From Longimicrobiales bacterium (GTDB lineage: Bacteria; Gemmatimonadota; Gemmatimonadetes; Longimicrobiales; Gaopeijiaceae), in contig CBDCKR010000002.1 of NCBI GenBank assembly GCA_965218325.1, positions 2,339,869-2,403,868 on the forward strand: a DNA stretch of 64,000 bases, written 5' to 3'. Below the pieces are notes generated by a model, which was not told where the DNA came from, ran no database searches, and saw nothing but the letters and a program-made list of their open reading frames with translations. The stretch's first letter is position 1, and every line of letters starts with the position of its first letter. A program made the translations under genes and the position numbers. Positions 20,673 to 36,459 of the stretch are shown one piece after another.

Positions 20673-21920
20673 TCAGTGATCTGCCGTAGGCTCCTTACTC
20701 AGATACGCAGCCCAATTGTCCATCAGGACGCGCCTGCGCTCGAACAGGTCGGAACGCGCATAGGCAGCTTCCACCTTGTTACGAACCGCATGAGCCAACG
20801 CGGCCTCGGCGACTTCACGCGGTGCGTTGGAACACTCGCCGCACCAGTCCCTGAAGCTCGACCGGAAGCCGTGCGGCACGGCCGCGATACCCAGGTCTCG
20901 AAGCAGCGTGGAGAGTCTGCTGTGGGCAGATGCGCGGCCCTCCGGCGACGGGAAAACGAGACCGCTGCCGCCCCCGAGCGTCCGCGCCTCGCTCAGTATC
21001 TCCACAGCGCGCCCGGACAGCGGCACCCTGTGGGGGCGATGGGCCTTCGTGCGTTCGGCGGGAACCGTCCACTCTCGAGCCTCCAGGTCGATTTCATCCC
21101 AGTGCGCCAAGCGAACCTCTCCCGAGCGGGCCGCCGTCAACACCAGGAACTCGAAGGCGAGTTTCGTGGCCGGGTAAGCGTGCGACTTCCGTACCGTCTC
21201 CATCGCGCCCGTGACCTTCGAGTGATGCAACGCGCGCATGTGCCGGACTACGGCTCGTTGTCGGCCAAGCGCTTGACCGAGCACATCGCTGGCGGGGTTG
21301 TCCGGCCGAAGCCCCATCGCCACCGCCCACTTCATCACCGCCCCGATGCGCTGGCGCACCCGCCGGGCAGTCACCTGCTTGTCGTGCCAGATCGGTGTCA
21401 GCACTGCCAGGATGTCGGCTGTCGTTATCTCCCCAACCGGTCGATGGCCCAGCTGTGGGAACGCATAGACGCGCAGGCTGGAGACCCAGTCCTTTGCATG
21501 CCTGGCGCTGCGCCAGCCCGGCCGCAGCTGTTCCAGAACGCGGGCGGTCGCTTCGGCGAACGTGGGCATGTCCCGGACCTTGTGCCGCTCGGTACGCGGA
21601 TCGCCGCCCGAGCGCGCGATCTTGCGGTTCATGAATGCCTTCTCGCGGGCCTCGGCCAGCGATACCAGCTGGTAGCCCCCGAGCCCCAGCGTGCGGTTTC
21701 GACCCTGGATCCGCAGACGCTGCTCCCATCGGCGCGCGCCGGATCGGTCCACGCGCAGATAGAGGCCGTTCCCATCGCAGTAGTATCCGGGCTTGGCGCT
21801 GCGCACGAAGGCCGCGCTGAGTGCGTTATGCGGTCGCCTGCCTCGGTGTTTGGGCAAATCCAATTCGGGAGTCCCCGTACAAAGTATCGTATGTTGTATA
21901 CGGGAACATAGTGGACACAC
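20673..21920 (-). CDS. int: Tyrosine recombinase, P4-like integrase with N-terminal arm-binding domain
   Basis: ..SAKPGYYCDGNGLYLRVDRSGARRWEQRLRIQGRNRTLGLGGYQLVSLAEAREKA.. (DUF4102-type arm-binding domain). ..LTAARSGEVRLAHW..HGFRSSFRDW..VEAAYARSD. The exact start is uncertain. Confidence 0.9.
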   Translation of the reverse strand: MCPLCSRIQHTILCTGTPELDLPKHRGRRPHNALSAAFVRSAKPGYYCDGNGLYLRVDRSGARRWEQRLRIQGRNRTLGLGGYQLVSLAEAREKAFMNRKIARSGGDPRTERHKVRDMPTFAEATARVLEQLRPGWRSARHAKDWVSSLRVYAFPQLGHRPVGEITTADILAVLTPIWHDKQVTARRVRQRIGAVMKWAVAMGLRPDNPASDVLGQALGRQRAVVRHMRALHHSKVTGAMETVRKSHAYPATKLAFEFLVLTAARSGEVRLAHWDEIDLEAREWTVPAERTKAHRPHRVPLSGRAVEILSEARTLGGGSGLVFPSPEGRASAHSRLSTLLRDLGIAAVPHGFRSSFRDWCGECSNAPREVAEAALAHAVRNKVEAAYARSDLFERRRVLMDNWAAYLSKEPTADH

Positions 21921-22025
21921 AGCGACAGTGCAACCGGGAGTGTCTTACATAACTCACTGTAATAACTATAGTTAAAGAACCTTATCAGACACATATGGAT
22001 TGTATTGGAATCTATATGTAGCAGA

Positions 22026-22643
22026 CGGTTGATCAGCTCGGAGAGGAGCCGGGAAGCCTCGGCGGCCCCGAGCATCTCGATCGGCGTGTGCTCCCCTACG
22101 AGCGCCCGGCCCGCGTCCACCAGAGCCCGGAAGCGGGCAGCGGCCCCCTCGATCTCGGAACCGAGGTAGGTCGGCGCGCTCGCCCTCCTGCGCTTCCACC
22201 ACTGCGTGAGACGGGACGCTCGTCCCGACGCGGGCCCGTCCGCCACCGTCCGTAGCCTGGGATTGTGCGCCCAGACCAGGTAGGCCTCGAGCTGCTGCAC
22301 GCGGCCTGCCAGAAACGCGCGGCGCTTCCGCTGCGAGACCGCTACGATGCCGGAGCCGTCGGCGTCCCCGCCCTCGGGTGCCCTCGGCCGGCGGAGCATA
22401 TAGAAGTAGAGGCGTGTGTCGGCGTCGAGGCCCGAGAGGAGGCGCTGCCAGCGGCCGAGCACGCGGTCGATCTGCTCGGGCGAACGCCCGTCGACCACCG
22501 GCGGGCACGAGCCGGCCTGCGGCGATCAGCTCGCCGGAGCGGGTCAGGCACGTGCGGCCGTCCTCGAGCCAGCCCCAGTAGGGGAGCTCGTCGGCCAGCG
22601 AACCGGCCGCCTCGTGGTCCTGGAGCTCCGCGGAGATCCTCAC
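22026..22643 (-). pseudogene. trbE: trbE/virB4 5' fragment (frameshift near 22500, then interrupted by the 13 kb element)
   Basis: GTG at 22643 overlaps the trbD stop (GTGA). ..LADELPYWGWLEDGRTCLTRSGELIAAG.., then in another frame ..VDGRSPEQIDRVLGRWQRLLSGLDADTRLYFYMLRR..EASRLLSELINR. Confidence 0.65.
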
Positions 22644-22942
22644 TGCCCGCTCCGGATCACGAGATGCCAGGGCACCTCGGCCCACTTGCCCGGGTCGAAG
22701 CGCGCCGGGTAGCGCGTCCCGGCCCGGAGCACCGCGAGCATGTCAGGGTCCCTCCGGCCGGCCAGCCAACCGGCCGCGTAGCCCACAGCGAAGACCACGC
22801 CGCCCGTCACGAGCGAGTTCATCGCGTTCCACATCGCGAGCCCGAGCGTCGCGACGAGCAGGAACCCCCTACGCTCCACGCCCAGGATCGTGAGCGGTCG
22901 GTTGAGGGCCGGATAGCCGGCCCAGCGCCTCAGACCCCTCAT
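22640..22942 (-). CDS. trbD: Conjugal transfer protein TrbD (VirB3-like)
   Basis: MRGLRRWAGYPALNRPLTILGVERRGFLLVATLGLAMWN..DPDMLAVL. The start overlaps the trbC stop. Confidence 0.75.
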   Translation of the reverse strand: MRGLRRWAGYPALNRPLTILGVERRGFLLVATLGLAMWNAMNSLVTGGVVFAVGYAAGWLAGRRDPDMLAVLRAGTRYPARFDPGKWAEVPWHLVIRSGQ

Positions 22943-23235
22943 CAGAAGAGCCAGGCCAGGAAGTTCGCCGCGCCCATCGCCATCCCCAGCCCGAAGATGA
23001 TCCCGGCCAGCGTCCGCTTGCTCCCGCCCTCGCCGAACGCGAACATCAGCCCGCCTACCACGATCGCGATCAGAGACAGCCCCCGAGCGATCGGACCCGT
23101 GAACTGCACCTGCAGCTCGTTCACCGCCTCCACCCACGGGCTCGTCCCCTGCGCCCAGAACAGCCCGGGGGACAGCAACCACAGCGTTAGCGTGGTCCAG
23201 GCCGCCGCTCGTACCGTCCTTAACAAAGGTTGCAT
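22942..23235 (-). CDS. trbC: Conjugal transfer pilin TrbC (VirB2-like)
   Basis: Signal-like N-terminus. ..VNELQVQFTGPIARGLSLIAIVVGGLMFAFGEGGSKRTLAGIIFGLGMAMGAANFLAWLF. Confidence 0.75.
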   Translation of the reverse strand: MQPLLRTVRAAAWTTLTLWLLSPGLFWAQGTSPWVEAVNELQVQFTGPIARGLSLIAIVVGGLMFAFGEGGSKRTLAGIIFGLGMAMGAANFLAWLF

Positions 23236-23440: not shown

Positions 23441-23960
23441 GTGACACGGACATCGACAGGAGCTGCCAGAGTGGAGCGGACTGAGCCCCGGCTTGTTGTC
23501 ATTGACTGCGAGACGACCGGGTTCAGCCGGTACGATCGCATCGTCGAGCTCGCGGCGGTCACGCTGGACCCCCGGACGTTGGAACCGGTCGACGAGTACG
23601 ACACACTTGTCAACCCGGAGCGCGATCTCGGACCGGTCGGTGTACACGGCATTACGGCGTCGATGGTGGAGGCTGCGCCCGTGTTCGGCGAGATCGCATC
23701 TGCAGTTGCGCGCAGGATTGATGGTGCGACTCTCGTCGCGCACAACCTGCCATTCGATACACGGATGCTTGCGTGTGAATTCAAACGACTCGGAGCGGCT
23801 TTTGATGCCGGCACTGGTCTGTGCACACTCAGAGCCACGGGAGACAAGCTCAGTATCGCGTGCGCCCGATTCGGCATTGCATTGAACCTGCAACATCGGG
23901 CGCTCACCGACGCCCGGGCTACCGCCGAACTCGCGCACTGGTTTCGCCGCCGACATGCGG
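23441..23960 (+). CDS. DEDDh 3'-5' exonuclease (DnaQ/epsilon-like); probably the N-terminal part of a fusion with the next ORF
   Basis: Exo I VVIDCETTG, Exo II LVAHNLPFDTRML, Exo III HRALTDARATAEL. The annotated frame runs on as low-complexity sequence to 24142. Confidence 0.8.
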
Positions 23961-24662
23961 CAGGACACCAGAGCAGCGACGGTCGGCTACTTCGCAGACA
24001 CTCCGAGCCCACGAACGCTGCGACGAGAAGCAACAGGGGCCGCAGTCAGCGACCTGGCCCGCGTCGTCTCCGACGCATACTACCCGTATTCCGACGAAGT
24101 GCTGCTGCAGTACCTCGACGCACTCGACTGGGTGCTCGATGATCGCCACATCGACGAGCGGGAGCACGCCGAGCTCGTCGAGTTGGCCAATAGCCTTGAG
24201 ATCTCCCACCAGCAACGGGCTGAAGCGCACCGCTCGTACATGACGTCGATCATCGCTGCGGCGAAACGTGACAGCATCATCACCGAAGCGGAGCAGCGCC
24301 TCATCAAGCAGGTGGCCGATGCACTCGAGCTCTCGGATGTCGCCATGCCCGAGGTCACAAAGCTTCCGCCCGCCAGCAACCTTCGCCAGGGGATGCATGT
24401 CTGCTTCACTGGCGAGGCCATCGTAGGGGGACGGCCGATTGCCCGACAGGTGCTGGAACGACACGCCGCGTGCGCCGGCTTGCAACCCGTGCGATCGGTC
24501 ACCAAAAGGGGATGCGATTTTCTTGTTGCGGCCGACTCCTCGAGCCAGTCCGGCAAAGCGCGCACGGCGCGACGCTACGGCGTGCCAGTGATGGCCGTAG
24601 CCGATTTCCTCGAGCAGGTCGGGGCTGACACTACAGCCGCGCTGGAGGGTTGGCCGCAGTGA
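23955..24662 (+). CDS. TerB-like plus BRCT domain protein (or the C-terminal part of the exonuclease after a frameshift)
   Basis: ..DDRHIDEREHAELVELANSLEIS..SIITEAEQRLIKQVADALELS (TerB-like repeats). C-terminal BRCT GMHVCFTGEA..VTKRGCDFLVAADSSSQSGKARTARRYGVPVMAVADFL. This frame is open from 23886. Confidence 0.7.
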   Translation: MRQDTRAATVGYFADTPSPRTLRREATGAAVSDLARVVSDAYYPYSDEVLLQYLDALDWVLDDRHIDEREHAELVELANSLEISHQQRAEAHRSYMTSIIAAAKRDSIITEAEQRLIKQVADALELSDVAMPEVTKLPPASNLRQGMHVCFTGEAIVGGRPIARQVLERHAACAGLQPVRSVTKRGCDFLVAADSSSQSGKARTARRYGVPVMAVADFLEQVGADTTAALEGWPQ

Positions 24663-25299: not shown

Positions 25300-25464
25300 G
25301 TGGCCCGCTACCAGACCAGCCTGGATCTCTTCTGGCTCCGGGACAAGAGCCTGACCGACCTCGAAACCTCCCTCGGCCGGACGAGCTCGCTGAGGAGATC
25401 ATCGAGAACCTAGCAGCCGGCCTCGACAAGCTTCCGGGAGGTTCTGCCGGGGCTCGGGAGCTGA
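25300..25464 (+). pseudogene. hsdM: Type I R-M methyltransferase (HsdM) extreme 3' remnant, two frameshifts
   Basis: ..ARYQTSLDLFWLRDKSLTDLE / NLPRPDELAEEIIENLAAGLD / FREVLPGLGS* matches the characteristic HsdM C-terminal tail (..LDIFWL.D.SL...NLP.P..LA.EI.E.L..AL..F..I). Confidence 0.55.
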
Positions 25465-25528
25465 GCAGTAGCCGTCCAGGTTGCAGCATACACGCGAGTC
25501 TCTCCGGATGCGACGCAACTCCGCCGCC

Positions 25529-27508
25529 TTACCATGTGGCGATCTCTTCGGCCGTGGCTGAGATGACTGCCCTCGCGAGTCCAGTCTGAGAGCGGATGAT
25601 CCCGAGGTTCTGCCATGCCACGAGGAACTTCGTGGCCAAATAGTCGCGGCTGTCTCCGCTGTGACCTTGAAGAACCTCAATTGCAGCATCGCGCGCCGCC
25701 GTCATACCCGCTGTGCACGCGTAGTTGATGTGGCATTGAAAGAAATCTGGGAAGCCGTCACGGAGAGCCTCAAACGTAGCCCGGTCGATGGAAAGCGCCT
25801 TTTGAAACGCCACGCTCGATGCGTCATCCTCAAACTGGCGGACCGCTCTCAGGTAGAGTGCGAGTTCGAACCTCACCAGGTCTACTGCGGGATGGCCGGG
25901 TCCTAACGCTTCATAGTCGATTAGGTGGACTTCGCTTTCGCCCCGGATTAGCACGTTTCGTAGATGGACATCCCCGTGCACGACGGCCGACCTCTCCATG
26001 CTCCGGAAGCGCTCCGCGGCCGCCTTCCGCGCTCTTATAGCGCAATCACCTAAGCCCCAGAGGAAACCGTCGCGCTCAAGTGCTTCCAGGTGTGTAGCGG
26101 GGGGGTTGACGAAGGATTCGAGATCGATACTTGGCGGGGGCGTGTACTTGTTAAGCTTTGCCAGGGTTTGGGCAACGCGCGCCAGCGCCCGCGCTAAGAA
26201 CAGCCGATCCTCCTCCACCCCATCCGGATGACTCTGCATCCACTGTCTATCCCAGAGCTTGCCCAATCGCTCCTCAAGGGACTCGGCCGGAAGTGAAGGG
26301 TTCCCGTCACCACTGACTAGGCCGAAGAGGATGACTGCGGCCTTCCCGTGAAAGTGACACTCAGGTCTCAGTGCATCGTTCCAGGGCCGTACAAACGTCC
26401 GGACCCGCCGCATCTCATCTAGCGCGAGGCGTTTAGACGTGATCTTGGCCACGAATGGCGGAGTCTCACCGCACATGACGGTTGCCAGCCTTGCTTCGGA
26501 AAGCCCTCCCGGTAGAAAGCGAACGGTTAGCGGCCTCGAATCCAATTCCGGATCGAAGCCCTCTGCCCGCACTCGGGCTCGTGCTGCCGCGACGAGCAGG
26601 TGAGCTTCGTCTGAGGTCAGATCACCTAGGACGAAAGACGCGGATTCATGAGATTGCAGCAGCTTCGCCGCATTCCGGAAGAAGGACAGCTCAGCGTCCC
26701 GGATCGTCCTATTCGTCCGAAACGAGATTGTGTCGTGTGAAACAGGGGTGCCGAGCTGTCGCACCGTCTTGATGATTTGAGACGCGCCGTCGCGGGAAAG
26801 CTGTAGCCCGGCAGCTTCGTGCACGCGAATCGCAATGAAGCTGGAATAACCCGCGAGGGTCTTGAAGAGGGCATTCTGGGCTGTCGCATCGAGGAGCGTG
26901 AGTCCTGACTCGTCGATCGCGCACCCACAGACATCGGTACTTGTAGCCAGCACCTTTGCTAGGTCAGCGGGGGTCTCGACGACCACAGGGTCCAACCCCT
27001 TTCTCTGAAGCAGCCTTCGGTTAGCGTGCTGATGATCGGGATGGCACAGCAGCAGGACCGTTGAATAGGCCAGCCGTTCCTCGGCTGTTTCAAGGCTCCC
27101 TTGGCCACGACGGTCCGGTGCTACAACTGGAGACGGAGCCTCCGTTGTCTCTTGCGCCGCAAGTGTTGGTGTTCCCCGCTGGGACCCATAGACTTCCAGC
27201 CGGGCGCTGGCGGGAATGACGTTGGCAACGGTCGCGCGCAAATGAGCCGGGAATCCACGCGCCATTTGAGCAAGCGGCGAAAGCTGGTCTCGACGTAGCT
27301 GGAGACCCCGCAGCAGCGTCCCCAGGCGCTTCGCTTGAGTGCGCTTAGAAAGAAGGGGATTCCGGCTGAGAGCATCCGATACGTCACGCACGAGCTGCAC
27401 GGCAGAGTCTCCAGTCGGGACCTGCCAGCGCCCCAACGCGAGCGCGTCCTGAGCAATCCGATCAGCGTTGGCCGCGACACCCTCGATGAACTCATCGCGC
27501 GTCATCAC
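25529..27508 (-). CDS. Multidomain protein: helical N-terminus, REC-like (flavodoxin-fold) domain, C-terminal APH/protein-kinase-like phosphotransferase domain
   Basis: REC-like: VLLLCHPD..DPVVVET..VCGCAIDES..SFIAIRV. Kinase N-lobe: FLPGGLSEARLATV..PFVAKIT..DEMRRV. Catalytic loop VVHGDVHLRNVLI and IDYE. GTG 27508 / ATG 27505 overlaps the ATPase stop. Confidence 0.75.
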   Translation of the reverse strand: MMTRDEFIEGVAANADRIAQDALALGRWQVPTGDSAVQLVRDVSDALSRNPLLSKRTQAKRLGTLLRGLQLRRDQLSPLAQMARGFPAHLRATVANVIPASARLEVYGSQRGTPTLAAQETTEAPSPVVAPDRRGQGSLETAEERLAYSTVLLLCHPDHQHANRRLLQRKGLDPVVVETPADLAKVLATSTDVCGCAIDESGLTLLDATAQNALFKTLAGYSSFIAIRVHEAAGLQLSRDGASQIIKTVRQLGTPVSHDTISFRTNRTIRDAELSFFRNAAKLLQSHESASFVLGDLTSDEAHLLVAAARARVRAEGFDPELDSRPLTVRFLPGGLSEARLATVMCGETPPFVAKITSKRLALDEMRRVRTFVRPWNDALRPECHFHGKAAVILFGLVSGDGNPSLPAESLEERLGKLWDRQWMQSHPDGVEEDRLFLARALARVAQTLAKLNKYTPPPSIDLESFVNPPATHLEALERDGFLWGLGDCAIRARKAAAERFRSMERSAVVHGDVHLRNVLIRGESEVHLIDYEALGPGHPAVDLVRFELALYLRAVRQFEDDASSVAFQKALSIDRATFEALRDGFPDFFQCHINYACTAGMTAARDAAIEVLQGHSGDSRDYLATKFLVAWQNLGIIRSQTGLARAVISATAEEIATW

Positions 27509-29442
27509 GTCTCCGCGTTCACTGTCTCCGCTATCTCGCCATCCGACCCAGCCAAGAGTTCGCCATAGTGGCGTTCGCGCTCAACGAATGCTTCTGCCCC
27601 TCCCTCCAGGAGGTCGAGAATCTCCTGTTTCCGGATGTCCACACTCCCAGTCAGTGCGGGCGCCGCCTTCGTCGGGCCTTCCATGCTCATCACTACGATT
27701 TTCTCTGCTTCACCCAGCACGGGAATGTTCGCATTGTGAGTGACAAATATCAGTTGCCGCTTGGACTTTAGCTGGCGTAACGTGGTGATCAACGAGTTGA
27801 AGACGAAGCTATTGTCCAAATCGTCCTCCGGCTGGTCGAACAGCAGAGGATAAGGCAGAGGCCGAAGAATGATCGGTAAGAGAGCTGTCGCCCGCTGACC
27901 CTTGGAGAGCGTCTCGACCGGCTTGGGTTCCCCCTCATCAAAGAGGGTGACCTCCAAGCGAGCCGCCGGAAGTTCTGTCTCAACGTCATACAAGTCGCGA
28001 TGATCGCCGAGGTGCGCGATGACCCGCGTCATCTGCCCCAGATCGCGCCCGAGAAGGTCCGCGAGTCGCTGCGCATCCCCTGTCTCAGTCAAGTCGATCA
28101 GCGTGCTAGGTTCAATGCGGTCTGCGATTGAGCGTGCTACCTCTTCTTGCGACCGGATCCGGGAACCAGTAAGAAACGCACTCAGGCGCCCAGCGTACGT
28201 GCGGCTGTTCCACGATGATCCCAGCGTGAGTTGGACGGTATCACCGTGCTCGCGGTTGATCGAATCGATCTCAGCGATTCGCAACTCGTAAAGTTGGTCA
28301 TCAATCCGCTGCAGTTCGCCACGCAGGTTCGTCCGTTCCTTCAGAAGACGCGACTCCTCCACCCGTGCCGCTTCTGCCTGCGTCTTCAGCTGTTCCAGAT
28401 GTTCCACCTGTCGCTTCAGGACGTGCTGCTGCTTGAGCGACTCATTCACGGCTTGCTCCTGCTGCCGTAACTGATAGTACAGCTCGCTCGCTTCCTCGAA
28501 GCGCCTATCGAGAGCATCGATGAGCGGCGCCAGGCGTACCGAATCTACCTTCTGGGCCACCGTCATGACTTCGCCAACGGCGGCAGCTAGGTCCATCAGC
28601 GGAGCCGTCTCGTCTCGCAAGGCGCTTTCCGTATCCGCCGTGACTGATGCTATAGACTCGGCAATTCGGCGGGCTGGCCCCCGAACACGTTCGAGACGAT
28701 CCGCAAGACCTTCCCGCTCGACCTCTACGCCCCTTACTGCTTCTAGCATTTTCTGTCGGCGCTCGTGGCTTTGGCGTTCCGCTTCTAACTCTGGACTCGC
28801 AGTAGGGGCTTCCTTCGTAAGACTATCGAGCTGACTCCGGGCTGCGTCTAGTTGGGTGATCTCGTGATCCAAGGTGGAGAGCTGCCCCCGGATCTTTCGG
28901 AGGCCAGGCCCAAGGTACCTCAGCCTCTCAGCTGTCTTCTGTCGTTCCGCATTCAGCTCTGCCACTTGGTTTCTGTGCGGACGGTCGATCAACGCAAGAC
29001 GTAACTTGTCATTGTCGTCCTCTGCGAGCCGTTGAAGGTCTCCCTGAGAAAAAATCTCGATGTCCCGAAGGAGGTCACGGTTCGTGTGTTCCCGAACTCC
29101 ATCTACGAAGATTCGCGGTTCGCCACCGACTTCGCGTTCGAGCGTGACCTCCTGCTGCGAACTGCTATCGGCAGTCTCAAGCGCACACCGCACGCTACCC
29201 GCGCGTAGCGTGTTCTTGATGATCCCGTATGTTGGCCACCTCGGCTCACCGTCGTCGTCCTCCCCGATGAGCGTGGCAACCCGGACCTCTTCCAACTCGA
29301 ACGCAAAGCGGATGCTCTCGATGAGTGTGGACTTGCATGTGCCCCGGGCACCGATGATGCAGGTGAGGCCACGCCCGAGGTCAACGGGACAGTCCTCCAA
29401 AAACCCCGACGAGGTTGATACCGCCTTCAGGTAGGTGCTCAT
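27505..29442 (-). CDS. SMC/ABC-type ATPase with long coiled-coil insert (TrlF-like AAA ATPase signature)
   Basis: Walker A GARGTCKSTLIES. About 330 aa of heptad-rich coiled coil. Signature LSKGQRATALL. Walker B LLFDQPEDDLDN. QLIFVTHNANIPVLGEAEKIVVM. Confidence 0.8.
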   Translation of the reverse strand: MSTYLKAVSTSSGFLEDCPVDLGRGLTCIIGARGTCKSTLIESIRFAFELEEVRVATLIGEDDDGEPRWPTYGIIKNTLRAGSVRCALETADSSSQQEVTLEREVGGEPRIFVDGVREHTNRDLLRDIEIFSQGDLQRLAEDDNDKLRLALIDRPHRNQVAELNAERQKTAERLRYLGPGLRKIRGQLSTLDHEITQLDAARSQLDSLTKEAPTASPELEAERQSHERRQKMLEAVRGVEVEREGLADRLERVRGPARRIAESIASVTADTESALRDETAPLMDLAAAVGEVMTVAQKVDSVRLAPLIDALDRRFEEASELYYQLRQQEQAVNESLKQQHVLKRQVEHLEQLKTQAEAARVEESRLLKERTNLRGELQRIDDQLYELRIAEIDSINREHGDTVQLTLGSSWNSRTYAGRLSAFLTGSRIRSQEEVARSIADRIEPSTLIDLTETGDAQRLADLLGRDLGQMTRVIAHLGDHRDLYDVETELPAARLEVTLFDEGEPKPVETLSKGQRATALLPIILRPLPYPLLFDQPEDDLDNSFVFNSLITTLRQLKSKRQLIFVTHNANIPVLGEAEKIVVMSMEGPTKAAPALTGSVDIRKQEILDLLEGGAEAFVERERHYGELLAGSDGEIAETVNAET

Positions 29443-29474
29443 AGCAGGTCACCGGGCAATTGGGCTTTGGCTTC

Positions 29475-29504
29475 TTGTTCGCAGCAAGGTATTAGTATTA
29501 TAAT
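29475..29504 (+). promoter_or_regulatory. Putative sigma70-type promoter giving a (near-)leaderless mRNA for the 29513 gene
   Basis: TTGTTC (29475-29480), 18-nt spacer, perfect TATAAT (29499-29504). The ATG at 29513 lies only 8 nt past the -10 box. No RBS. AT-rich divergent intergenic region. Confidence 0.4.
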
Positions 29505-29512
29505 CTCGTTCA

Positions 29513-30082
29513 ATGGATGAGATCAAGAGACCACGCGACTATAGCGTCCTGCTCAGGAAGCCGGGAGACGGGCCGGACGCCTGGGGAACGTCGGCCGGCA
29601 TCAACGTCTTCTCGAGACTCAATGCCGAGCTGGTCCGGCTCACGGACAGCACCGTCGTTGTACTCGACTACTCAGGCGTCGAGCGGACGGATGTGAGCTT
29701 TCAACGAGAGGGGGTAGTCGAGACGGTGAAAAAGCATCGTCCCCGGCTCCTCTTCATCGCCTCTAACGTGGGTGACGAAGACGTGCTCGCGAATCTGGGC
29801 GCGGCACTGGAGGCTCGCGGCGAAACTCTGCTCGTCCGGCAGCGGGGGGAGCCGCCGCGTATTCTCGGCCGCCGATTGGCCAAGGAGCACGAGGATACTC
29901 TTTGGGCGGTCCACGAGCATCCTGGGTTCACATCAACTCAGCTGACTGTCCCACCGTATGGACTCGAAGGGTCTACGGCCTCTGCACGGCTGACAGCACT
30001 CTGGAAGGCGGGGTTGCTGGGCCGCATCCAAGGAGCCTCTCCGAGCGGTGGCCGAGAGTACCGGTACTATCCGATCCGTTGA
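29513..30082 (+). CDS. STAS-like (DUF4325-type) domain fused to a winged-helix DNA-binding domain
   Basis: ..VVVLDYSGVERTDVSFQREGVVETV.. (STAS-like). C-terminal ..WAVHEHPGFTSTQLT..ASARLTALWKAGLLGRIQ..REYRYYP (MarR-like wHTH). Confidence 0.55.
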   Translation: MDEIKRPRDYSVLLRKPGDGPDAWGTSAGINVFSRLNAELVRLTDSTVVVLDYSGVERTDVSFQREGVVETVKKHRPRLLFIASNVGDEDVLANLGAALEARGETLLVRQRGEPPRILGRRLAKEHEDTLWAVHEHPGFTSTQLTVPPYGLEGSTASARLTALWKAGLLGRIQGASPSGGREYRYYPIR

Positions 30083-30532
30083 CGCGTACGGCAGACCCTG
30101 GACTTTCCTCGTCCTTGGCAAGGCTTTGCATGACCTCATCGACCTGCGACGGCGATACGGATCATTCCCCACGCGCCGTCTCGGCCATGCGCAGCAGGAT
30201 GTCACCGGCGATGCCGAGGTGGCGCACTCGCTGCTCGCCCTCCAGTTGCGCAAGAGGCTGCCGTTCGAGGCCGTACCTGTTCACGGGCCCATCGTCCTGC
30301 CGGCCCCGCCCGGAACGGGCAAGACCACCCTGGCGCGAGGGTTGGCGAACACGGTCGCCGAAGCGCTTGAGGGGGCGAAAGCGCATTTCATCCAGATCGA
30401 TCCGCACCCCTGGCTACCGCGGCCCTGGGGAGGAGCCAGAAGGAAGTCGCCGAGCTCCTCCACCAGATCATCAGTAAGACTTCGTCGCTCGACTTCCCCT
30501 ATGCTTTCTACAAACGGAGGTGCACCCCATGA
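30048..30532 (+). pseudogene. Truncated and frameshifted AAA+ ATPase (Walker A only, TRIP13/Pch2-like spacing)
   Basis: ..VHGPIVLPAPPGTGKTTLARGLANTVAEAL..HFIQIDPH, then in the +1-shifted frame PLATAALGRSQKEVAELLHQII..RRCTP*. Its TGA overlaps the Ubl ATG (ATGA). No Walker B. Confidence 0.55.
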
Positions 30533-30777
30533 ATGGTGACACGCAAATTTTCGTGAGCGGTCGCGAGTACAAGGTCCCTGGCAATGTCGTCAGCTACGAG
30601 CAGGTCGTGAAGATCTGGAACCAGCTGCACGAGGCGGAGAACAAGCACATCATCGGCACGCCCGGCATCGACTACGAAGACAGCTTGAAAGGCGAGGACG
30701 GTATTCTCCTTCCGGGCAAGGACGTTCAAGTCAAGGACGGCACGAGCTTTTCGGTAGATCCCGAGCATGTCTCCTAA
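30529..30777 (+). CDS. Single-domain multiubiquitin-family ubiquitin-like protein
   Basis: GGAGG RBS. MNGDTQIFVSGREYKVPGNVVSYEQVV..LLPGKDVQVKDGTSFSVDPEHVS fits the multiubiquitin beta-grasp pattern. Overlaps the E1 gene by 11 nt. Confidence 0.65.
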   Translation: MNGDTQIFVSGREYKVPGNVVSYEQVVKIWNQLHEAENKHIIGTPGIDYEDSLKGEDGILLPGKDVQVKDGTSFSVDPEHVS

Positions 30778-31969
30778 GGATCGCCTCTCCGCGTTCGCGG
30801 AGCAGGCCGGGTTTACCGTCAGGGTCGAATCCGACGTTGTCCTGGCCGTCCAGGTTCCTTGTCTCCTTGCAGATGGGGTTGTGGGCACTTGCACTATTGA
30901 GAAGTCCTACGACCCGGCGAGCGAGAAACCGAATGACCGGATAGGCGGCGCAGCCCATGCGGTGCGGATCACCACTGACGAAGAGCACGACGGGCGTGTG
31001 TACCACGCGGATGGGAACCCTATTGAGAGCCGCATCGACGGCGACGGAAAAACCTGGTCGAACATCTCCATCCGGAAAGGTAGCCAAGGCAGCCCGGAGG
31101 AGGACGAGTCGGTGAGCGACTTGATCCACCGCTATGCGAAGCAGATCGTCGGGGCCGTGTCGGCGGCTGGCTACTCCGAAACCGCTTCTCTCGCGATGCG
31201 GGGTCCGTTCAAGATACCCAACACTTTCGAGGCACGGGCGGCGATAGGCCCGGTTCAGGATCGAATCCGCGATCAGCGGATTGCGATCATCGGCCTAGGC
31301 GGAACGGGCGCCTACGTCCTGGATCTTGTTGCCAAGACGCCCGTGATGGAAATTCATCTTTTGGATTCCGACGACGTTAACTGGCACAACTTCATGCGGG
31401 CGCCCGGCGCACCTACTGCCGAGGAGATTGAGTCGCGTCGCAAGGAGCCTCTTCGCAAAGTGGACTACTACCACTCCAAGTACGCTTCCCTCCGGGAAGG
31501 CATTTACCCCCACGCTGTCCGGGTGGATAGCCCGTCCAAGTTCGCCGCGTTTCTATCAGCTCATCCCATTGACTATGGCTTCGTGTGTATCGACCAACTG
31601 ACTGACAGCGATTCGCCGCGTCAGGATGTCGTCTACGCTGCGCTCTCGGAGGCGAGCGTTCCGTTCATAGATTCCGGTGTAAGCATCACGCTGGACAACC
31701 GCGCCATTGGGGGCGCTGTCACCACGAGCGCCTACTCTGGAGGCTCGCTGGCGTGGCAGGATGCCATACCGAATGCCAGAGTTCACGGCGATCGTCCCCG
31801 CTATCGCAACGTTCAACTGCCGGAAGTGAACGCGTTGGCGGCAGCGCTTGCGGTGATGGAGTGGCGGCGGCGCACCGGGCAGTATGTCTCAGAGTCCACT
31901 TCGTTCCTCCATAAGTTCCGGCTCGAGGCGCCGCGCATTGTCCCACAGCGGACTGACTCACAGGAGTGA
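30767..31969 (+). CDS. ThiF/E1-like adenylyltransferase with a ~130-aa N-terminal extra domain (possibly E2-like)
   Basis: Rossmann motif RIAIIGLGGTGAYVLDLVAKTPVMEIHLLDSDDV..NFMR, FVCIDQ, PFIDSG. The N-terminal domain is ..VQVPCLLADGVVGTCTIEKS..GRVYHADGNPIESRIDGDG.. Confidence 0.75.
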   Translation: MSPKDRLSAFAEQAGFTVRVESDVVLAVQVPCLLADGVVGTCTIEKSYDPASEKPNDRIGGAAHAVRITTDEEHDGRVYHADGNPIESRIDGDGKTWSNISIRKGSQGSPEEDESVSDLIHRYAKQIVGAVSAAGYSETASLAMRGPFKIPNTFEARAAIGPVQDRIRDQRIAIIGLGGTGAYVLDLVAKTPVMEIHLLDSDDVNWHNFMRAPGAPTAEEIESRRKEPLRKVDYYHSKYASLREGIYPHAVRVDSPSKFAAFLSAHPIDYGFVCIDQLTDSDSPRQDVVYAALSEASVPFIDSGVSITLDNRAIGGAVTTSAYSGGSLAWQDAIPNARVHGDRPRYRNVQLPEVNALAAALAVMEWRRRTGQYVSESTSFLHKFRLEAPRIVPQRTDSQE

Positions 31970-32391
31970 GGCCGGTGAGACTCCGCCCCTTCTTCGTAGA
32001 CGTATTGCCCGATTTTGACGCAATCAAAGCCGGTGAGCTCTGGATTAGCCACAGATACCGGACTGTCAACTTGCGCTGCCCCTGCGGTTGTGGCGATCTG
32101 ACCGTCCTGTCTCTCCACCCAAGTCGGTGGCACGTTCATTTCGATGGCAAGTCGGTCTCTCTGGACGGTCCTACGGGTGGGTCCGTGTGGGCCAATTCCG
32201 GCTGCGGCAGCCACTACTTCATAAGGAACAACGCCGTCATTTGGGCACGTAGAATCGATCCAGGCCGTCATTTGGAGTATGCCCAAGTCGAGCGGACCCG
32301 GCTGATTGCGTCTCACCGGAGCCGTCTGGCGTGGCGCTCCTGGCTCAAACGTGTATGCCGCTGTCTTTCGCTACGGAGTTGGCGTAAGTAG
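31966..32391 (+). CDS. DUF6527-family Zn-ribbon-like protein
   Basis: ..GELWISHRYRTVNLRCPCGCGDLTVLSLHP..WANSGCGSHYFIRNNAVIW.. The GTG start overlaps the E1 stop (GTGA). Confidence 0.6.
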   Translation: MRPVRLRPFFVDVLPDFDAIKAGELWISHRYRTVNLRCPCGCGDLTVLSLHPSRWHVHFDGKSVSLDGPTGGSVWANSGCGSHYFIRNNAVIWARRIDPGRHLEYAQVERTRLIASHRSRLAWRSWLKRVCRCLSLRSWRK

Positions 32392-34940: not shown

Positions 34941-35838
34941 CTATGTTAGTCCCAGCACCTGTGGAGGGCCGTGAAGGACGGGCATCCTCAGGAACCAGGG
35001 CGACGGCTTAATCGCCTCAGGGGCCGGGGGAAAGCCGCCGCAGGCGCTGTGGGGTCGGACGGTATTGTACTCGCGCCTCCATTGCTCGACCAGCACGGCC
35101 GCCTCCGCCAACGAGTAGAAGATCTCCCCGTTCAACAGCTCGTCCCTGAGCTTGCCGTTGAAGCTCTCGTTGTAGCCGTTCTCCCACGGGCTGCCCGGCT
35201 CGATAAAGAGCATCTCGACGCCCACGCGCCCCAACCACCGCCGCACGAGCTTCGCGGTGAACTCCGGTCCGTTGTCCCGACCTCAGATACTCGGGAGGCC
35301 CGTGTCGGACGAACAGATCGGCCAGCACCTCGAGCACGTCGTGCGAGCGGATCTTGCGAGCCACCACGATCGCCAGGCACTCCCTCGTGTGCTCGTCCAG
35401 CACTGTCAGCAGCTTCAGCGCACGCCCGTCGTGCGTCCTCGAGGCCACGAAGTCGTACGACCAGACGTGGCCCCGATACAGCGGCCTCAGCCGGATGCAC
35501 GATCCGTCGTTGAGCCACAGCCGACCTCGCTTCGGCTGCCGCTGCGGGACCTTCAGCCCCTCCTGCCTCCAGATCCGCTCCACCCGCTTGTGGTTCACCC
35601 CCCAGCCCTCGATGCGGAGCATGTCCGTGACGCGTCGGTAGCCGTAGCGGCCGAATCGACTCGCAAGTCGCACGATATCACCTCGGAGCGCCCCCTCGTC
35701 ACTCGCCACTTTCCTCGCCCGGCGCTGGGTCGTGCGTGGCTGCCCGAGCACCCGGCACGCTCTCCTCTCCGACGCCCCGAGCTGCTGACGTACACGCACC
35801 ACACAACGTCGTCGGCGCTCGGGGCTCAGAAGTTTCCC
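34941..35838 (-). pseudogene. IS3 transposase OrfB (rve/DDE), disrupted by a 1-nt insertion near 35270
   Basis: ..HVWSYDFVASRTHDGRALKLLTVLDEHTRECL..HGPPEYLRS, then a frame change to ..MLFIEPGSPWENGYNESFNGKLRDELL..YNTVRPHS. TCGGGACAAC is found where TCGGACAAC (S-D-N) is expected. Confidence 0.85.
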
Positions 35839-36104
35839 TCGGCCGCTTCCTCCAGGATCAGCTTGTCCAGTGTCAAGTCCGCCACTGCTCGCTTCAGGCG
35901 CCCGTTCTCGCGCTCGAGCTCCTTCAGGCGCCGTGCCTGGCTCACCTTCATCCCGCCGTACTCCCGCCTCCACCGGTAGTACGTCTGCTCGGTGATGCCC
36001 AGCTCCCGGCTGATCAGCTTCACGGATTTGCCGCGGGCCAGACCCACCTCTGCCTCCCGCAGTGCAGTGATGATCTGCTCCGGAGTGTGTCGCTTCCTTC
36101 CCAT
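35826..36104 (-). CDS. IS3 transposase OrfA (HTH)
   Basis: MGRKRHTPEQIITALREAEVGLARGKSVKLISRELGITEQTYYRWRREYGG..LKELERENGRLKRAVADL. Confidence 0.9.
   Translation of the reverse strand: MGRKRHTPEQIITALREAEVGLARGKSVKLISRELGITEQTYYRWRREYGGMKVSQARRLKELERENGRLKRAVADLTLDKLILEEAAEGNF
35832..35838 (-). promoter_or_regulatory. Programmed -1 frameshift heptamer G GGA AAC at the orfA/orfB junction
   Basis: GGGAAAC lies 6 nt before the orfA stop. The -1 frame reads GKLLSPERRRRCVV.. into orfB. Confidence 0.6.
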
Positions 36105-36174
36105 CCTGACCTCCTCGCTGAAAAGCTTCAGACCAGGTCGATCCTAACATTGCACCTGGTCTCGTTTCAGGGGG

Positions 36175-36459
36175 TCAGGTCAGCTGGGCGGGTGGGTCGC
36201 GTCGCTCTCTCACTTGGTCGAAGTACCACTCCCGCGTCTTGTCACATCGGGCTAGGTCCCGAGTATCGCTAGCAGAGATCCGAAGCTGACGTGGGATATG
36301 GTGGTTGCCTTCTTTCAGACTATGGGAATATCCAAAATGCGTCTCAAGGATGCCGTCGACATAGATCTTGACCTTCATATGCTTGCTGCCTGATGTCGTA
36401 GCAGCCTTAAGCTTGGTCGCGATCTTTTCGGCTTCGCGTCTGGTGATGTCAATCATCAA
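36175..36459 (-). CDS. Small protein, weakly HicA-like toxin candidate; 3' end abuts and overlaps the IS3 terminus
   Basis: ..GSKHMKVKIYVDGILETHFGYSHSLKEGNHHIPRQLRIS.. The last codons (36175-36182) are IS sequence. 11-nt overlap with the upstream ORF. Confidence 0.3.
   Translation of the reverse strand: MMIDITRREAEKIATKLKAATTSGSKHMKVKIYVDGILETHFGYSHSLKEGNHHIPRQLRISASDTRDLARCDKTREWYFDQVRERRDPPAQLT

What the first reader, a model, noticed from the sequence alone, without database searches (positions are those of the whole stretch)
25529..29442. Translationally coupled SMC/ABC-type ATPase plus REC-like/APH-fold kinase: candidate uncharacterised two-gene immune module
Seen in sequence, for the 645-aa ATPase: GARGTCKST Walker A, a ~330-aa coiled coil, LSKGQRA signature, LLFDQPEDDLDN Walker B and FVTHNANIPV. 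Its stop overlaps the start (GTGATGA) of a 659-aa protein.

That protein's C-terminal ~330 aa carry kinase-like motifs: GGLSEARL, FVAKI, HGDVHLRNVLI, IDYE. Its middle resembles a receiver domain (VLLLCHPD..VVVET..CAIDES..FIAIRV).

The pair sits on a decayed conjugative element between an hsdM remnant, an exonuclease-BRCT gene and a ubiquitin-like operon, which is classic defence-island context.

Inference: I cannot match this ATPase plus kinase-fold pairing to a named defence system (Septu, Gabija, PARIS, Lamassu, Wadjet, Pgl/BREX and TerY-P all differ in partner or motifs).
Basis: partly seen in the sequence, partly recalled or inferred. Interest (0 to 1): 0.85.

Follow-up and report, generated by a model that had tools for sequence, protein, structure and literature searches.

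The report
Sensor ATPase, kinase and CapS repressor

Summary
Window 27505-29442(-) encodes a 645-aa SMC-like ABC ATPase. Its stop overlaps the start of a 658/659-aa protein (25529-27505/8, -) made of a helical N-domain, a receiver-fold domain and an APH/TCAD9-fold kinase. The kinase catalytic residues are essentially invariant in 106 divergent relatives.

In all 14 kinase-bearing loci fetched via a kinase or ATPase homologue (11 distinct after duplicates), the ATPase gene or its remnant lies immediately upstream. Neighbours are type I R-M, BREX, Abi genes and transposases.

- **ATPase family.** The ATPase is a TrlF/Ppl-family module without that family's N-terminal PHP domain.
- **Third gene.** The divergent 189-aa gene (29513-30082) is a CapS homologue, a STAS-wHTH repressor (Chambers et al., EMBO J 2026), and keeps the phospho-acceptor serine (Ser62). 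Published CapS always follows the GHKL kinase CapK. Here CapK is absent and the ATPase-kinase pair takes its place. A clade of CapS proteins co-diversifies with the pair. A conserved inverted repeat lies inside the pair's predicted promoter.

In the window and in L033, capS heads a ubiquitin-like (Bub-type) operon.

Best reading: a Ppl-type sensor ATPase drives a kinase, CapS represses the pair, and the kinase probably phosphorylates CapS. No phosphorylation or defence has been tested. I rate it a new variant of known kinds, interest about 0.68.

The parts
27505..29442 (-). SMC-like ABC ATPase (645 aa). It is a TrlF/Ppl-family ATPase module without the PHP domain. Motifs: Walker A G31-T39, Q-loop Q133, signature S513-Q516, Walker B D536 followed by Q537, H-loop H569.
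25529..27505 (-). Three-domain kinase protein (658 aa from ATG 27505; 659 aa from the alternative GTG at 27508). Its start overlaps the ATPase stop codon.
27185..27508 (-). N-terminal all-helical domain of the kinase protein (res 1-108). It has no family match and is absent from the 507-aa L004 homologue.
26639..27061 (-). Receiver-fold (beta-alpha)5 domain (res 150-290). It is CheY-like in fold only, and the acceptor-position Asp199 is not conserved across the family.
25529..26530 (-). APH/TCAD9-fold kinase domain (res about 327-659). Residues: Gly-loop G334-G335-x-S337, K355, E365, H511-G-D513-x-H-x-x-N518, D531.
29513..30082 (+). capS-like gene (189 aa): N-terminal STAS domain with phospho-acceptor motif D60-V-S62, and a C-terminal MarR-type winged helix. 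It is divergent from the ATPase gene.
29497..29526 (-). Predicted sigma-70-type promoter of the ATPase-kinase operon (TTGATC-18-TATAAT, 10 of 12 matches). It is the only such site in 25300-30600.
29503..29523 (.). Inverted repeat ATCTCAT-N7-ACGAGAT (perfect ATGAGAT in L013-L016). It lies between the -35 and -10 hexamers and spans the capS start codon. Candidate CapS operator; half-site centres are 14 bp apart.
30048..30539 (+). Truncated AAA+ gene fragment (Walker A only, then out-of-frame sequence) between capS and the Bub-type operon.
30520..32391 (+). Bub-type ubiquitination-like operon co-directional with capS: Multi_ubiq 30520-30777, ThiF E1 30767-31969, DUF6527/BubE 31966-32391. Candidate CapS-controlled cargo.
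25300..25457 (+). Remnant of the C-terminal ~52 residues of a type I R-M HsdM, just downstream of the kinase gene.

Best explanation
This is a mobile defence-island cassette built from three parts.

1. **Sensor ATPase.** An SMC-like ABC ATPase of the TrlF/Ppl family has lost, or never had, that family's fused PHP phosphoesterase domain. By analogy with other SMC/Rad50-like defence ATPases it most likely acts as the sensor, probably of a DNA-related cue (inferred).
2. **Output kinase.** The translationally coupled downstream gene supplies the output instead of PHP. It is a catalytically competent APH/TCAD9-fold kinase preceded by a helical domain and a pseudo-receiver domain. The fold and the catalytic residues are shown; the substrate is inferred.
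3. **CapS repressor.** In 5 of the 11 distinct assessable kinase-anchored loci, including this window, a divergent CapS-type STAS-wHTH repressor completes the unit. It has no CapK kinase, but it keeps the serine that CapK phosphorylates in the published system.

CapS therefore most likely represses both divergent transcription units (inferred).

The APH-fold kinase is the only kinase in cis. It is the prime candidate to phosphorylate CapS Ser62, which would break the CapS dimer and de-repress the cassette (inferred). In this window and in L033 that would also de-repress the Bub-type ubiquitination-like operon downstream of capS. On this reading the pair is a non-homologous substitute for CapK.

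In loci without capS, the same sensor-kinase pair presumably acts on other targets.
For: Pair conservation:
- In all 14 kinase-bearing loci fetched via a kinase or ATPase homologue (11 distinct), the ATPase or its remnant lies immediately upstream, down to 47% ATPase and 31% kinase identity. L033, found via CapS, is the same.
- The junction is overlapping or tight in most loci.

ATPase family:
- NCBIfam TrlF E=6e-79, matching model positions 297-944 only.
- A true PHP-bearing TrlF protein from a P2-like phage hotspot aligns end to end with it and shares the DQPEDxLD Walker B.

Kinase activity:
- In 106 representatives (median 28% identity): K355 104/106, E365 106/106, D513 106/106, N518 105/106, D531 106/106.

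CapS identity:
- The profile matches solved CapS structures 9Z72 (E=7e-22) and 9Z71 (E=3e-17) over the full length.
- Ser62 aligns with the mutated S58A and with the phospho-Ser54 position.
- The AF2 model has pLDDT 91.5 with STAS topology plus a MarR-like wHTH.

Partner switch:
- CapS neighbours are either a co-directional CapK (L018-L022, L024-L030, L032) or the divergent ATPase(-kinase) with no CapK (window, L013-L016, L023, L033).
- ATPase-associated CapS proteins form essentially one clade.
- CapS and ATPase identities co-vary across shared contigs.
- Ser62 is kept in 30 of 31 members of the CapK-less clade.

Operator:
- The inverted repeat is conserved while the surrounding intergenic DNA diverges.
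- It lies between the -35 and -10 hexamers of the only predicted promoter.
- Its half-site centres are 14 bp apart, as in the published 'wide' CapS palindrome.

Wiring:
- The layout kinase<-ATPase | capS->Ubl/E1 operon recurs in L033 at 54/40/63% identity with a different Ubl cargo.
- In L013-L016, capS has no co-directional operon, so the pair is the only cis target.
Against: - No experiment or complex prediction links the kinase to CapS.
- The pair occurs without capS in 6 of the 11 distinct assessable kinase-anchored loci (L001/L010, L003, L004/L005, L011, L012, L017; L002/L009 not counted), so CapS cannot be its only or obligatory substrate.
- APH-fold kinases often phosphorylate small molecules. 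The nearest sequence matches are weak and mixed: lanthipeptide-synthetase kinase domains, APH and ACAD10/11.
- The Ppl/TrlF analogy, where a fused effector is replaced, fits 'kinase as immune effector' at least as well as 'kinase as regulator'.
- An unlinked CapK elsewhere in the genome could serve CapS. Only 64 kb of the host was seen.
- Many of the CapS-ATPase association labels rest on matching contig lengths, not on inspected DNA. One labelled protein (P0194) falls in the CapK clade. The tree is NJ without support values.
- The operator in the window has one mismatch, and L033 has a different palindrome.
- The sensor role of the ATPase and its cue are pure analogy.
- The kinase C-lobe model is of low confidence.
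Confidence: 0.45

Rival explanations
1. The pair is an autonomous two-gene anti-phage (abortive-infection-type) system. The Ppl-type ATPase senses infection, and the kinase is the toxic effector that phosphorylates host or phage proteins, in the manner of Stk2. CapS, where present, is only a transcriptional brake on a toxic operon and answers to another kinase or signal.
For: - The pair is complete without capS in about half of the loci.
- In the TrlF/Ppl family the ATPase is fused to an effector (PHP), so the kinase occupies an effector position.
- In L013-L016, capS has nothing else to regulate in cis.
- The pair sits beside R-M, BREX and Abi genes.
Against: - CapS in the CapK-less clade keeps its phospho-acceptor serine (30/31), yet has no cognate GHKL kinase in cis.
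- The layout with the pair upstream of capS and a Ubl operon recurs in the window and L033, exactly where CapK would be.
- No defence or toxicity data exist for any member.
Confidence: 0.3
2. The kinase phosphorylates a small molecule or a nucleic-acid end rather than a protein, as aminoglycoside/choline/homoserine-type kinases or polynucleotide kinases do. The SMC-like ATPase would tether the DNA substrate. The module would then modify or repair DNA or nucleotides during conflict.
For: - Pfam APH, EcKL and Kdo-type matches.
- PDB matches include APH and the ACAD10/11 kinase domain.
- Kaur et al. 2020 proposed low-molecular-weight substrates for the APH-like kinases of ternary systems.
Against: - The best NCBIfam and PDB matches also include peptide Ser/Thr kinases of lanthipeptide synthetases and a 'serine/threonine protein kinase'.
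- No metabolic or nucleotide-modifying genes are conserved nearby.
- This does not explain the orphan CapS with an intact phospho-site.
Confidence: 0.1
3. The pair is a housekeeping or stress DNA-repair-signalling module (a RecN/Rad50-like ATPase with a regulatory kinase) unrelated to phage or plasmid conflict. Its defence-island location is hitch-hiking.
For: - In Oryzomonas japonica (L003) the neighbours are mostly housekeeping genes.
- JGI annotators call relatives 'DNA repair ATPase RecN'.
- CapK/CapS circuits respond to DNA damage and may serve general stress responses.
Against: - The distribution is patchy across phyla: Gemmatimonadota, Rhodothermales, a gammaproteobacterial MAG and Geobacterales.
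- Decayed copies exist (L002/L009).
- It sits on an integrase-bounded low-GC island here.
- R-M, BREX, Abi and transposase neighbours recur.
- The closest ATPase relatives are phage-hotspot defence proteins.
Confidence: 0.07

Closest known systems
TrlF / Spaf_1101 / Ppl family of PHP-ATPase proteins. Ppl is a validated single-gene anti-phage protein of P2-like prophage hotspots (validation from my own knowledge of Rousset et al. 2022; the ppl defence system and its PHP domain are mentioned in the text).
   Same: The ATPase module is homologous end to end. It shares Walker A IIGxRGTxKSTLI, the long helical insert, the LSxGQ signature, the unusual Walker B D-Q-P-E-D-x-L-D (Gln where ABC ATPases have the catalytic Glu), VTHNxNI and the C-terminal LEGGxxAF. 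Both are found in mobile or defence contexts.
   Different: There is no PHP domain: the match starts at model position 297 of 944, and Pfam finds no PHP. Scores fall below both curated cut-offs. The family here has a conserved, translationally coupled kinase gene, which Ppl/TrlF proteins lack.
CapK-CapS regulators of immune operons (Chambers et al., EMBO J 2026, PMC13373217)
   Same: - The 189-aa gene is a CapS homologue with STAS-wHTH architecture.
- It keeps the phospho-acceptor serine.
- A palindrome overlaps a promoter with 14-bp half-site spacing.
- It sits upstream of a Bub-type operon and next to R-M/BREX systems.
   Different: - CapK (HTH-STAS-GHKL kinase) is absent from the window and from all pair-containing loci.
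- Its place is taken by a divergently transcribed ABC ATPase plus an APH-fold kinase with no detectable homology to CapK.
- The paper searched from capK and reports every capK followed by capS. It does not describe CapK-less CapS.
- In four loci capS has no downstream operon.
SMC-like-ATPase-plus-effector defence systems (Lamassu LmuB+LmuA, Gabija GajA, PARIS AriA, MADS mad3)
   Same: The general logic is an ABC/SMC-type ATPase paired with a separate output protein. There are weak PADLOC matches to LmuB, AriA, GajA and mad3.
   Different: The matches are marginal and partial (E 1e-5 to 1e-14, mostly Walker or signature regions). None of these systems has an APH-fold kinase partner, and the kinase protein hits no PADLOC model.
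TCAD9 kinase domains of vWA-MoxR-VMAP ternary conflict systems (Kaur et al. 2020, PMC7159879)
   Same: This is the best Pfam match of the kinase domain (PF19974, above the gathering score). It is an active APH-superfamily kinase used in a conflict system.
   Different: No vWA, MoxR or VMAP genes occur in any of the inspected neighbourhoods. The N-terminal helical and receiver-fold domains and the ATPase partner are specific to this family.

Membership tests
Ppl / TrlF PHP-ATPase family | N-terminal PHP (polymerase/histidinol-phosphatase) domain fused to the ATPase | tested here: not met
   The TrlF model match covers positions 297-944 only. Pfam finds no PHP. A true member from Yersinia phage has PHP at res 11-126.
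Ppl / TrlF PHP-ATPase family | ATPase module homologous over its full length, with the family motifs | tested here: met
   TrlF E=6e-79 over res 9-627. BLASTP against phage TrlF gives 5-626 vs 263-870, E=1e-31, with shared DQPEDxLD, VTHNxNI and LEGGxxAF.
Ppl / TrlF PHP-ATPase family | Score at or above the curated NCBIfam cut-off | tested here: not met
   TrlF 266.8 bits against 350. Spaf_1101 133.6 against 475. Ppl 109.3 against 1000.
CapK-CapS regulatory pair | CapS: STAS domain followed by wHTH, homologous to solved CapS | tested here: met
   The A2 profile matches 9Z72 at E=7e-22 and 9Z71 at E=3e-17, both full length. The AF2 model has pLDDT 91.5 with STAS topology. The wHTH matches MarR/PadR with prob 1.0.
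CapK-CapS regulatory pair | Conserved phospho-acceptor serine on STAS helix 2 | tested here: met
   Ser62 aligns with V. cholerae S58 (Ala in the S58A crystal) and with E. roggenkampii S54. It is conserved 30/31 in the ATPase-associated clade and 35/35 in the CapK clade.
CapK-CapS regulatory pair | CapK (HTH-STAS-GHKL kinase) encoded immediately upstream of capS | tested here: not met
   tblastn with a CapK from L018 finds nothing in the window or in L001-L017. The same query finds CapK in 12 of 13 metagenome CapS loci.
CapK-CapS regulatory pair | Palindromic CapS operator overlapping a promoter | tested here: inconclusive
   A conserved inverted repeat lies between the -35 and -10 hexamers of the predicted promoter, with 14-bp half-site spacing. 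Binding was not tested. The half-site sequence differs from the published TTAA, and the window copy has one mismatch.
CapK-CapS regulatory pair | capS lies upstream of an immune or stress operon | tested here: met
   In the window, capS is followed by an AAA+ fragment and Multi_ubiq/E1/BubE. In L033 it is followed by a Multi_ubiq-like gene and JAB-ThiF. This is not the case in L013-L016.
CapK-CapS regulatory pair | The kinase phosphorylates CapS in response to ssDNA or DNA damage | not testable with these tools
   This needs biochemistry or complex prediction.
CheY-like receiver (REC) domain | (beta-alpha)5 flavodoxin-like fold | tested here: met
   AF2 res 150-290, pLDDT 85-92. Foldseek matches 3i42, 2b4a, 3grc and 2qxy at TM 0.62-0.66, prob 1.0.
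CheY-like receiver (REC) domain | Conserved phospho-acceptor Asp, acidic pocket, Thr/Ser and Lys | tested here: not met
   D199 is kept in 58/106 and D158 in 36/106 representatives. I see no conserved Thr/Ser after beta-4 or Lys after beta-5 in the A1 alignment (my reading). There is no Pfam Response_reg hit even at E<=10.
Protein-kinase-like superfamily (APH / TCAD9) | Gly-rich loop, beta-3 Lys, alpha-C Glu, HxDxxxxN catalytic loop and Mg-binding Asp | tested here: met
   TCAD9 45.6 bits (cut-off 40) and APH 39.6 bits (cut-off 23.2). The residues are invariant in A1 and at least 104/106 in divergent representatives.
vWA-MoxR-VMAP ternary system (the context in which TCAD9 was defined) | Neighbouring vWA, MoxR and VMAP genes | tested here: not met
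   None appear in the Pfam-annotated neighbourhoods of L001-L005, L015-L017 and L033.
Named defence systems in PADLOC-DB 2.0 | Both proteins match the models of one system | tested here: not met
   The kinase protein has no hits at E<=0.01. The ATPase has only partial hits: Ppl C-terminus 2e-24, mad3 7e-14, AriA, PDC-M49A, LmuB.

The most novel reading that the evidence does not exclude
The SMC-like ATPase plus APH-fold kinase is an independently evolved, non-homologous replacement for the GHKL kinase CapK. On this reading, a Rad50/SMC-type sensor detects a DNA-borne danger signal and licenses a eukaryotic-like-fold kinase to phosphorylate the STAS domain of CapS at Ser62. That would switch on ubiquitin-like (Bub) and other immune operons. 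It would be a second signalling route into the CapS switch, and the first case of a Ppl-type defence ATPase used as a transcriptional sensor rather than a nuclease regulator.
Probability: 0.33. Interest if true: 0.8.

Novelty: new variant of a known kind. Interest (0 to 1): 0.68.

Why it matters
**CapS has a second partner.** CapS was published in 2026 as the obligate partner of CapK. These data show a whole clade of CapS proteins with an intact phospho-site, no CapK, and a co-inherited ATPase-kinase pair. That makes a clear hypothesis testable with a few constructs: partner swapping at the sensor-kinase level of an immune transcription switch.

**Ppl/TrlF modularity.** The Ppl/TrlF ATPase module can be uncoupled from its PHP effector and paired with a kinase. 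This is informative for how Ppl-type systems sense infection, which is still unknown. The family-wide Gln at the catalytic-Glu position suggests a slow-hydrolysing switch.

**An unannotated family.** About 380 clusters (at 50% identity) of this three-domain kinase exist, almost all in uncultured bacteria, and none is annotated beyond 'phosphotransferase'. It is a sizeable unexplored signalling family.

**Practical use.** It would add a kinase-based induction module for Bub, CBASS and similar systems to the catalogue used by defence-finder tools.

Tried and rejected
- **Literature on names.** Searches for 'TrlF' returned only spectroscopy (TRLFS) papers and unrelated hits. 'TCAD' returned semiconductor papers. 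The two biological TCAD9 mentions are a figure legend and an exclusion list.
- **Defence-discovery papers.** The component-modularity preprint and DefensePredictor contain no ATPase plus APH-kinase system.
- **Sequence search of PDB.** The kinase gave only marginal catalytic-loop matches.
- **Foldseek on the full kinase model.** It gave no kinase-domain hit, because the C-lobe is poorly modelled (pLDDT<50 for res 398-557).
- **hhalign.** The kinase alignment against CheY, and against CapK, gave no signal.
- **Annotated collections.** The kinase has no tblastn hit in 72,556 plasmids. The ATPase has only distant C-terminal-half hits in phages.
- **Window's own protein.** An exact-match look-up was not on record, and the cluster look-up gave no names or organism.
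- **Longer family members.** Checked for Rosetta-stone fusions; there are no extra Pfam domains.
- **Exact palindrome search.** It failed in the window because the window copy has one mismatch. The half-site alone is not over-represented in the window.
- **PDC-M49.** Rejected as an identity: the ATPase matches only 57 C-terminal residues and the kinase does not match at all.
- **L017 upstream ORF.** The 182-aa ORF at the capS position looks like a spurious GC-rich frame and is not a CapS homologue.
- **Window AAA+ fragment.** tblastn did not link it to the L019 Trip13-like gene.

Full report
**1. The observation**

Both ORFs are present on the minus strand.

In an alignment of 29 homologues (44-89% identity) the following are invariant:
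- Walker A: G31-x-R-G-T-C-K37-S-T
- Q-loop: Q133
- Signature: S513-K-G-Q516
- Walker B: D536
- H-loop: T568-H569-N570

The residue after the Walker B Asp is a nearly invariant Gln (D-Q-P-E), where ABC ATPases normally have the catalytic Glu.

The segment of roughly 330 residues between the two halves of the head matches the coiled-coil portions of SMC/Rad50 models.

The junction reads ACG-TGA-TGA-C. Homologues begin at MTRDEF and the database copy has 658 aa. The real start is therefore probably the ATG at 27505, giving TGATG, a 1-nt overlap. The GTG at 27508 would give a 4-nt overlap. Either way the genes are coupled.

**2. The kinase protein**

Pfam gives TCAD9 (45.6 bits, cut-off 40) and APH (39.6 bits, cut-off 23.2) for the C-terminal third.

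In 25 close homologues the Gly-loop, K355, E365, H511-G-D513-x-H-x-x-N518 and D531 are invariant. In 106 full-length representatives of 50%-identity clusters (22-56% identical to the window, median 28%) these residues are kept as follows:

| Residue | Kept |
|---|---|
| K355 | 104/106 |
| E365 | 106/106 |
| D513 | 106/106 |
| N518 | 105/106 |
| D531 | 106/106 |

It is an active kinase family, not a pseudokinase.

The AF2 model (pLDDT 64.6 overall) is confident for two regions:
- a helical N-domain (res 1-108)
- a (beta-alpha)5 domain (res 150-290, pLDDT 85-92)

The second domain matches stand-alone CheY-like receivers in Foldseek (TM 0.62-0.66, prob 1.0). However:
- No sequence-level receiver signal exists.
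- The Asp at the acceptor position (D199) is kept in only 58/106 relatives, and D158 in 36/106.

I read it as a pseudo-receiver, probably a regulatory or interaction domain.

The family is sizeable. The profile search found 380 cluster representatives at E<=1e-3 and 185 at E<=1e-30. Most are 640-690 aa, so the three-domain architecture is conserved.

**3. The pair is conserved and mobile**

The kinase and ATPase hit lists share many contig lengths.

I fetched 14 kinase-bearing loci via a kinase or ATPase homologue. These are 11 distinct loci once duplicate records (L001=L010, L002=L009, L004~L005) are merged. In every one the ATPase gene or its remnant lies directly upstream. L033, found via CapS, shows the same arrangement. 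This holds down to 47% ATPase and 31% kinase identity in Oryzomonas japonica.

One lineage (L002/L009) has an internally deleted ATPase, that is, a decaying copy.

Hosts are scattered: Gemmatimonadales, Longimicrobiales, Rhodothermales, a gammaproteobacterial MAG and Geobacterales.

Neighbours include:
- type I R-M hsdRSM, AbiJ and PhdYeFM (L015, L016)
- AbiEii and a transposase (L017)
- a DruA-like transposase and an Eco57I-type methylase (L001)
- BREX BrxL (L013)

In the window the pair lies on a low-GC island of roughly 18 kb (0.60 against 0.65-0.67). The island is bounded by a tyrosine integrase and IS elements, and it carries TrbC/VirB2 and VirB3 remnants.

The kinase protein has no PADLOC match, and the ATPase has only partial ones.

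**4. What the ATPase is**

NCBIfam places it next to the TrlF family (E=6e-79, 266.8 bits, cut-off 350), Spaf_1101 and the anti-phage protein Ppl. The match covers only model positions 297-944.

I tested what the missing part is. A relative sits in the gpA-portal hotspot of the P2-like Yersinia phage vB_YenM_42.18. It is a true TrlF member (464.8 bits) with an N-terminal PHP domain. Its residues 263-870 align with residues 5-626 of the window ATPase, including the D-Q-P-E-D-x-L-D Walker B.

The window protein is therefore a TrlF/Ppl-type ATPase module without the PHP effector. The kinase gene occupies the position of an output domain supplied in trans.

**5. The third gene changes the picture**

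The divergent 189-aa ORF (29513-30082) has no Pfam match, but it has 65 homologues. Its AF2 model is excellent (pLDDT 91.5). It has an N-terminal beta-beta-alpha-beta-alpha-beta-alpha-beta STAS-type topology and a C-terminal MarR/PadR-type winged helix.

A profile of the family matches PDB 9Z72/9Z73 (E=7e-22) and 9Z71 (E=3e-17) over their full length. These are CapS from V. cholerae (S58A mutant) and from E. roggenkampii. They come from Chambers et al., EMBO J 2026 (PMC13373217).

In that work:
- The GHKL kinase CapK, activated by ssDNA, phosphorylates CapS Ser54.
- Phosphorylation breaks the CapS dimer and de-represses transcription.

In the HMMER alignment, Ser62 of the window protein falls on the Ala of S58A and on the second Ser of 'TDSSF' in 9Z71. 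It is therefore the phospho-acceptor equivalent.

**6. CapS without CapK**

The paper reports that all 443 capK genes are followed by capS. Here the converse fails. tblastn with a CapK from L018 finds nothing in the window or in any pair-containing locus. The same query finds CapK directly upstream of capS in 12 of 13 CapS loci fetched from metagenomes, and in L018 and L019.

The remaining locus, L023, has the divergent ATPase instead. The arrangements are:

| Loci | Arrangement |
|---|---|
| L018 | CapK-CapS-small gene-Multi_ubiq/E1/BubE |
| L019 | CapK-CapS-small gene-type III CBASS |
| Window, L013-L016, L023, L033 | capS divergent from the ATPase(-kinase) |

At least 13 further CapS homologues share contig lengths with ATPase or kinase hits. 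I verified one of these, and it held (L033).

Supporting patterns:
- In an NJ tree of 66 CapS proteins, the ATPase-associated ones form essentially one clade and the CapK-associated ones the other. There is one exception, P0194.
- CapS, ATPase and kinase identities to the window fall together across shared contigs: 89/88/81, 81/78/66, 80/75/66, and 63/54/40 in L033.
- The phospho-motif D-V-S-F-Q-R-E is kept in 30/31 members of the CapK-less clade.

**7. Regulatory anatomy**

The 70-bp capS-ATPase intergenic region contains the only sigma-70-like promoter predicted in 25300-30600. It is TTGATC-18-TATAAT on the minus strand, facing the ATPase.

Between its hexamers, and spanning the capS start codon, lies the inverted repeat ATCTCAT-N7-ATGAGAT. 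It is perfect in L013-L016 and has one mismatch in the window. It is conserved while the flanking intergenic DNA diverges.

Its half-site centres are 14 bp apart, the same as in the published 'wide' CapS palindrome TTAA-N10-TTAA, which also overlaps a promoter. This is a prediction, not a demonstrated operator. L033 has a different palindrome.

**8. Wiring**

In the window, capS is followed co-directionally by a truncated AAA+ fragment and a Multi_ubiq/ThiF-E1/DUF6527(BubE) operon.

L033 is only 54/40/63% identical (ATPase/kinase/CapS). It has the same layout with a different ubiquitin-like cargo: a weak Multi_ubiq match, a 151-aa protein and a JAB-ThiF fusion. The pair thus sits exactly where CapK would be.

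In L013-L016, capS is convergent with brxL, hsdM or an AbiJ gene and has no downstream operon. There the pair is its only cis target.

In 6 of the 11 distinct assessable kinase-anchored loci the pair has no capS at all. L008 is cut at the contig end and cannot be assessed.

**9. Interpretation**

Shown:
- a conserved coupled ATPase-kinase operon
- TrlF/Ppl-type ATPase without PHP
- an active APH-fold kinase
- a CapS homologue with an intact phospho-site and no CapK
- co-inheritance of a CapS clade with the pair
- a conserved palindrome inside the pair's promoter

Inferred:
- The ATPase senses a DNA-related cue.
- CapS represses the cassette.
- The kinase phosphorylates CapS Ser62, and so substitutes for CapK.

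I put 0.45 on this integrated model. I put 0.30 on the rival in which the pair is a self-contained kinase-effector defence system and CapS is only a brake. Smaller weights go to small-molecule or nucleic-acid kinase and housekeeping readings. The first two are not mutually exclusive, because the kinase may have CapS and other substrates.

**10. Novelty**

I found no description of this pairing in PADLOC 2.0, Pfam, NCBIfam or the searchable literature. The components belong to known kinds: Ppl/TrlF ATPases, CapS repressors and APH/TCAD9 kinases. I therefore rate it a new variant of known kinds rather than categorically new.

It is worth following up because the central hypothesis is sharp and cheap to test.

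Noticed in passing
window 23441-24662 (+): A PDC-S48-type candidate defence gene (DEDDh exonuclease + TerB-like + BRCT-like C-terminus) is split into two overlapping ORFs in different frames. ORF 23441-24142 matches PADLOC model positions 5-217 and ORF 23955-24662 matches 193-405 of 411. It is probably a frameshifted pseudogene or a sequencing error.
   Followed up: partly
window 27833-27835 (ATPase Q537); L034 2246-4864: The whole TrlF/Ppl-type ATPase family, including a PHP-bearing phage member, has Gln instead of the canonical catalytic Glu after the Walker B Asp (D-Q-P-E-D-x-L-D). In other ABC ATPases an E-to-Q change traps the ATP-bound state, so these proteins may be slow-hydrolysing switches.
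   Followed up: partly
L006 5477-7387; L007 2277-4187: An ATPase homologue (51% identical) occurs alone, without a kinase gene. It sits in a phage-like gene string (PDDEXK/RecE-like, SSB, VapE, Dam methylase) and is followed by small unknown ORFs. It could be a phage-borne version or a decoy.
   Followed up: no
window 30048-30539 (+): This is a truncated AAA+ gene (Walker A GTGKT, then out-of-frame sequence) between capS and the Multi_ubiq gene. In L019 a full Trip13-like AAA+ gene follows capS at the head of a type III CBASS operon, so this may be a relic of cargo replacement. tblastn did not confirm homology.
   Followed up: partly
L018 9646-9837; L019 9742-9927: A conserved small gene of about 62 aa (weak Pfam YjzC match, Gly/Pro-rich) lies directly after capS in canonical CapK-CapS loci with different cargos (Bub and CBASS). 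It is absent from the window. The CapS paper mentions YegP-like genes after capS, not this one.
   Followed up: no
L002 8487-9985 / L009 6490-7979: In a Longimicrobiales MAG the ATPase gene has an internal deletion (residues ~54-192 missing, called as 93-aa and 346-aa ORFs) while the kinase gene is intact. This is a decaying copy of the module.
   Followed up: partly
L013 2791-5313 and L014 2760-5282: A BREX brxL gene ends convergently right next to capS. In L015 and L016, type I R-M genes lie beside capS (hsdM directly in L015; an AbiJ gene intervenes in L016). This echoes the published finding that ~20% of capK-capS pairs lie just downstream of an R-M system, although the orientation is different here.
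   Followed up: partly
window 20673-23235 and 34941-38152: The island boundaries are as follows. A tyrosine integrase is at 20673-21920. TrbC/VirB2 (22942-23235) and VirB3-like (22640-23182) remnants are present without the rest of a T4SS. IS3-family fragments are at 34941-36104 and an IS110 transposase is at 37394-38152. Core genes flank both sides (TonB receptor, Big_2/LRR protein, Mo-oxidoreductase, BCCT transporter).
   Followed up: partly
window 10082-10176 (+): ARAGORN calls a 95-nt tRNA-Thr(CGT) inside a 769-aa Calx-beta ORF on the opposite strand (9447-11756). It is probably a false positive. tRNA-Met at 14053-14128 looks normal but is about 6.5 kb from the integrase.
   Followed up: no
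L004 10356-11879; L005 3688-5211: One sub-lineage has a 507-aa kinase protein that lacks the N-terminal helical domain. It is separated from the ATPase gene by about 500 nt and followed by a weak M48-peptidase-like gene. The helical domain is therefore dispensable in some members.
   Followed up: no
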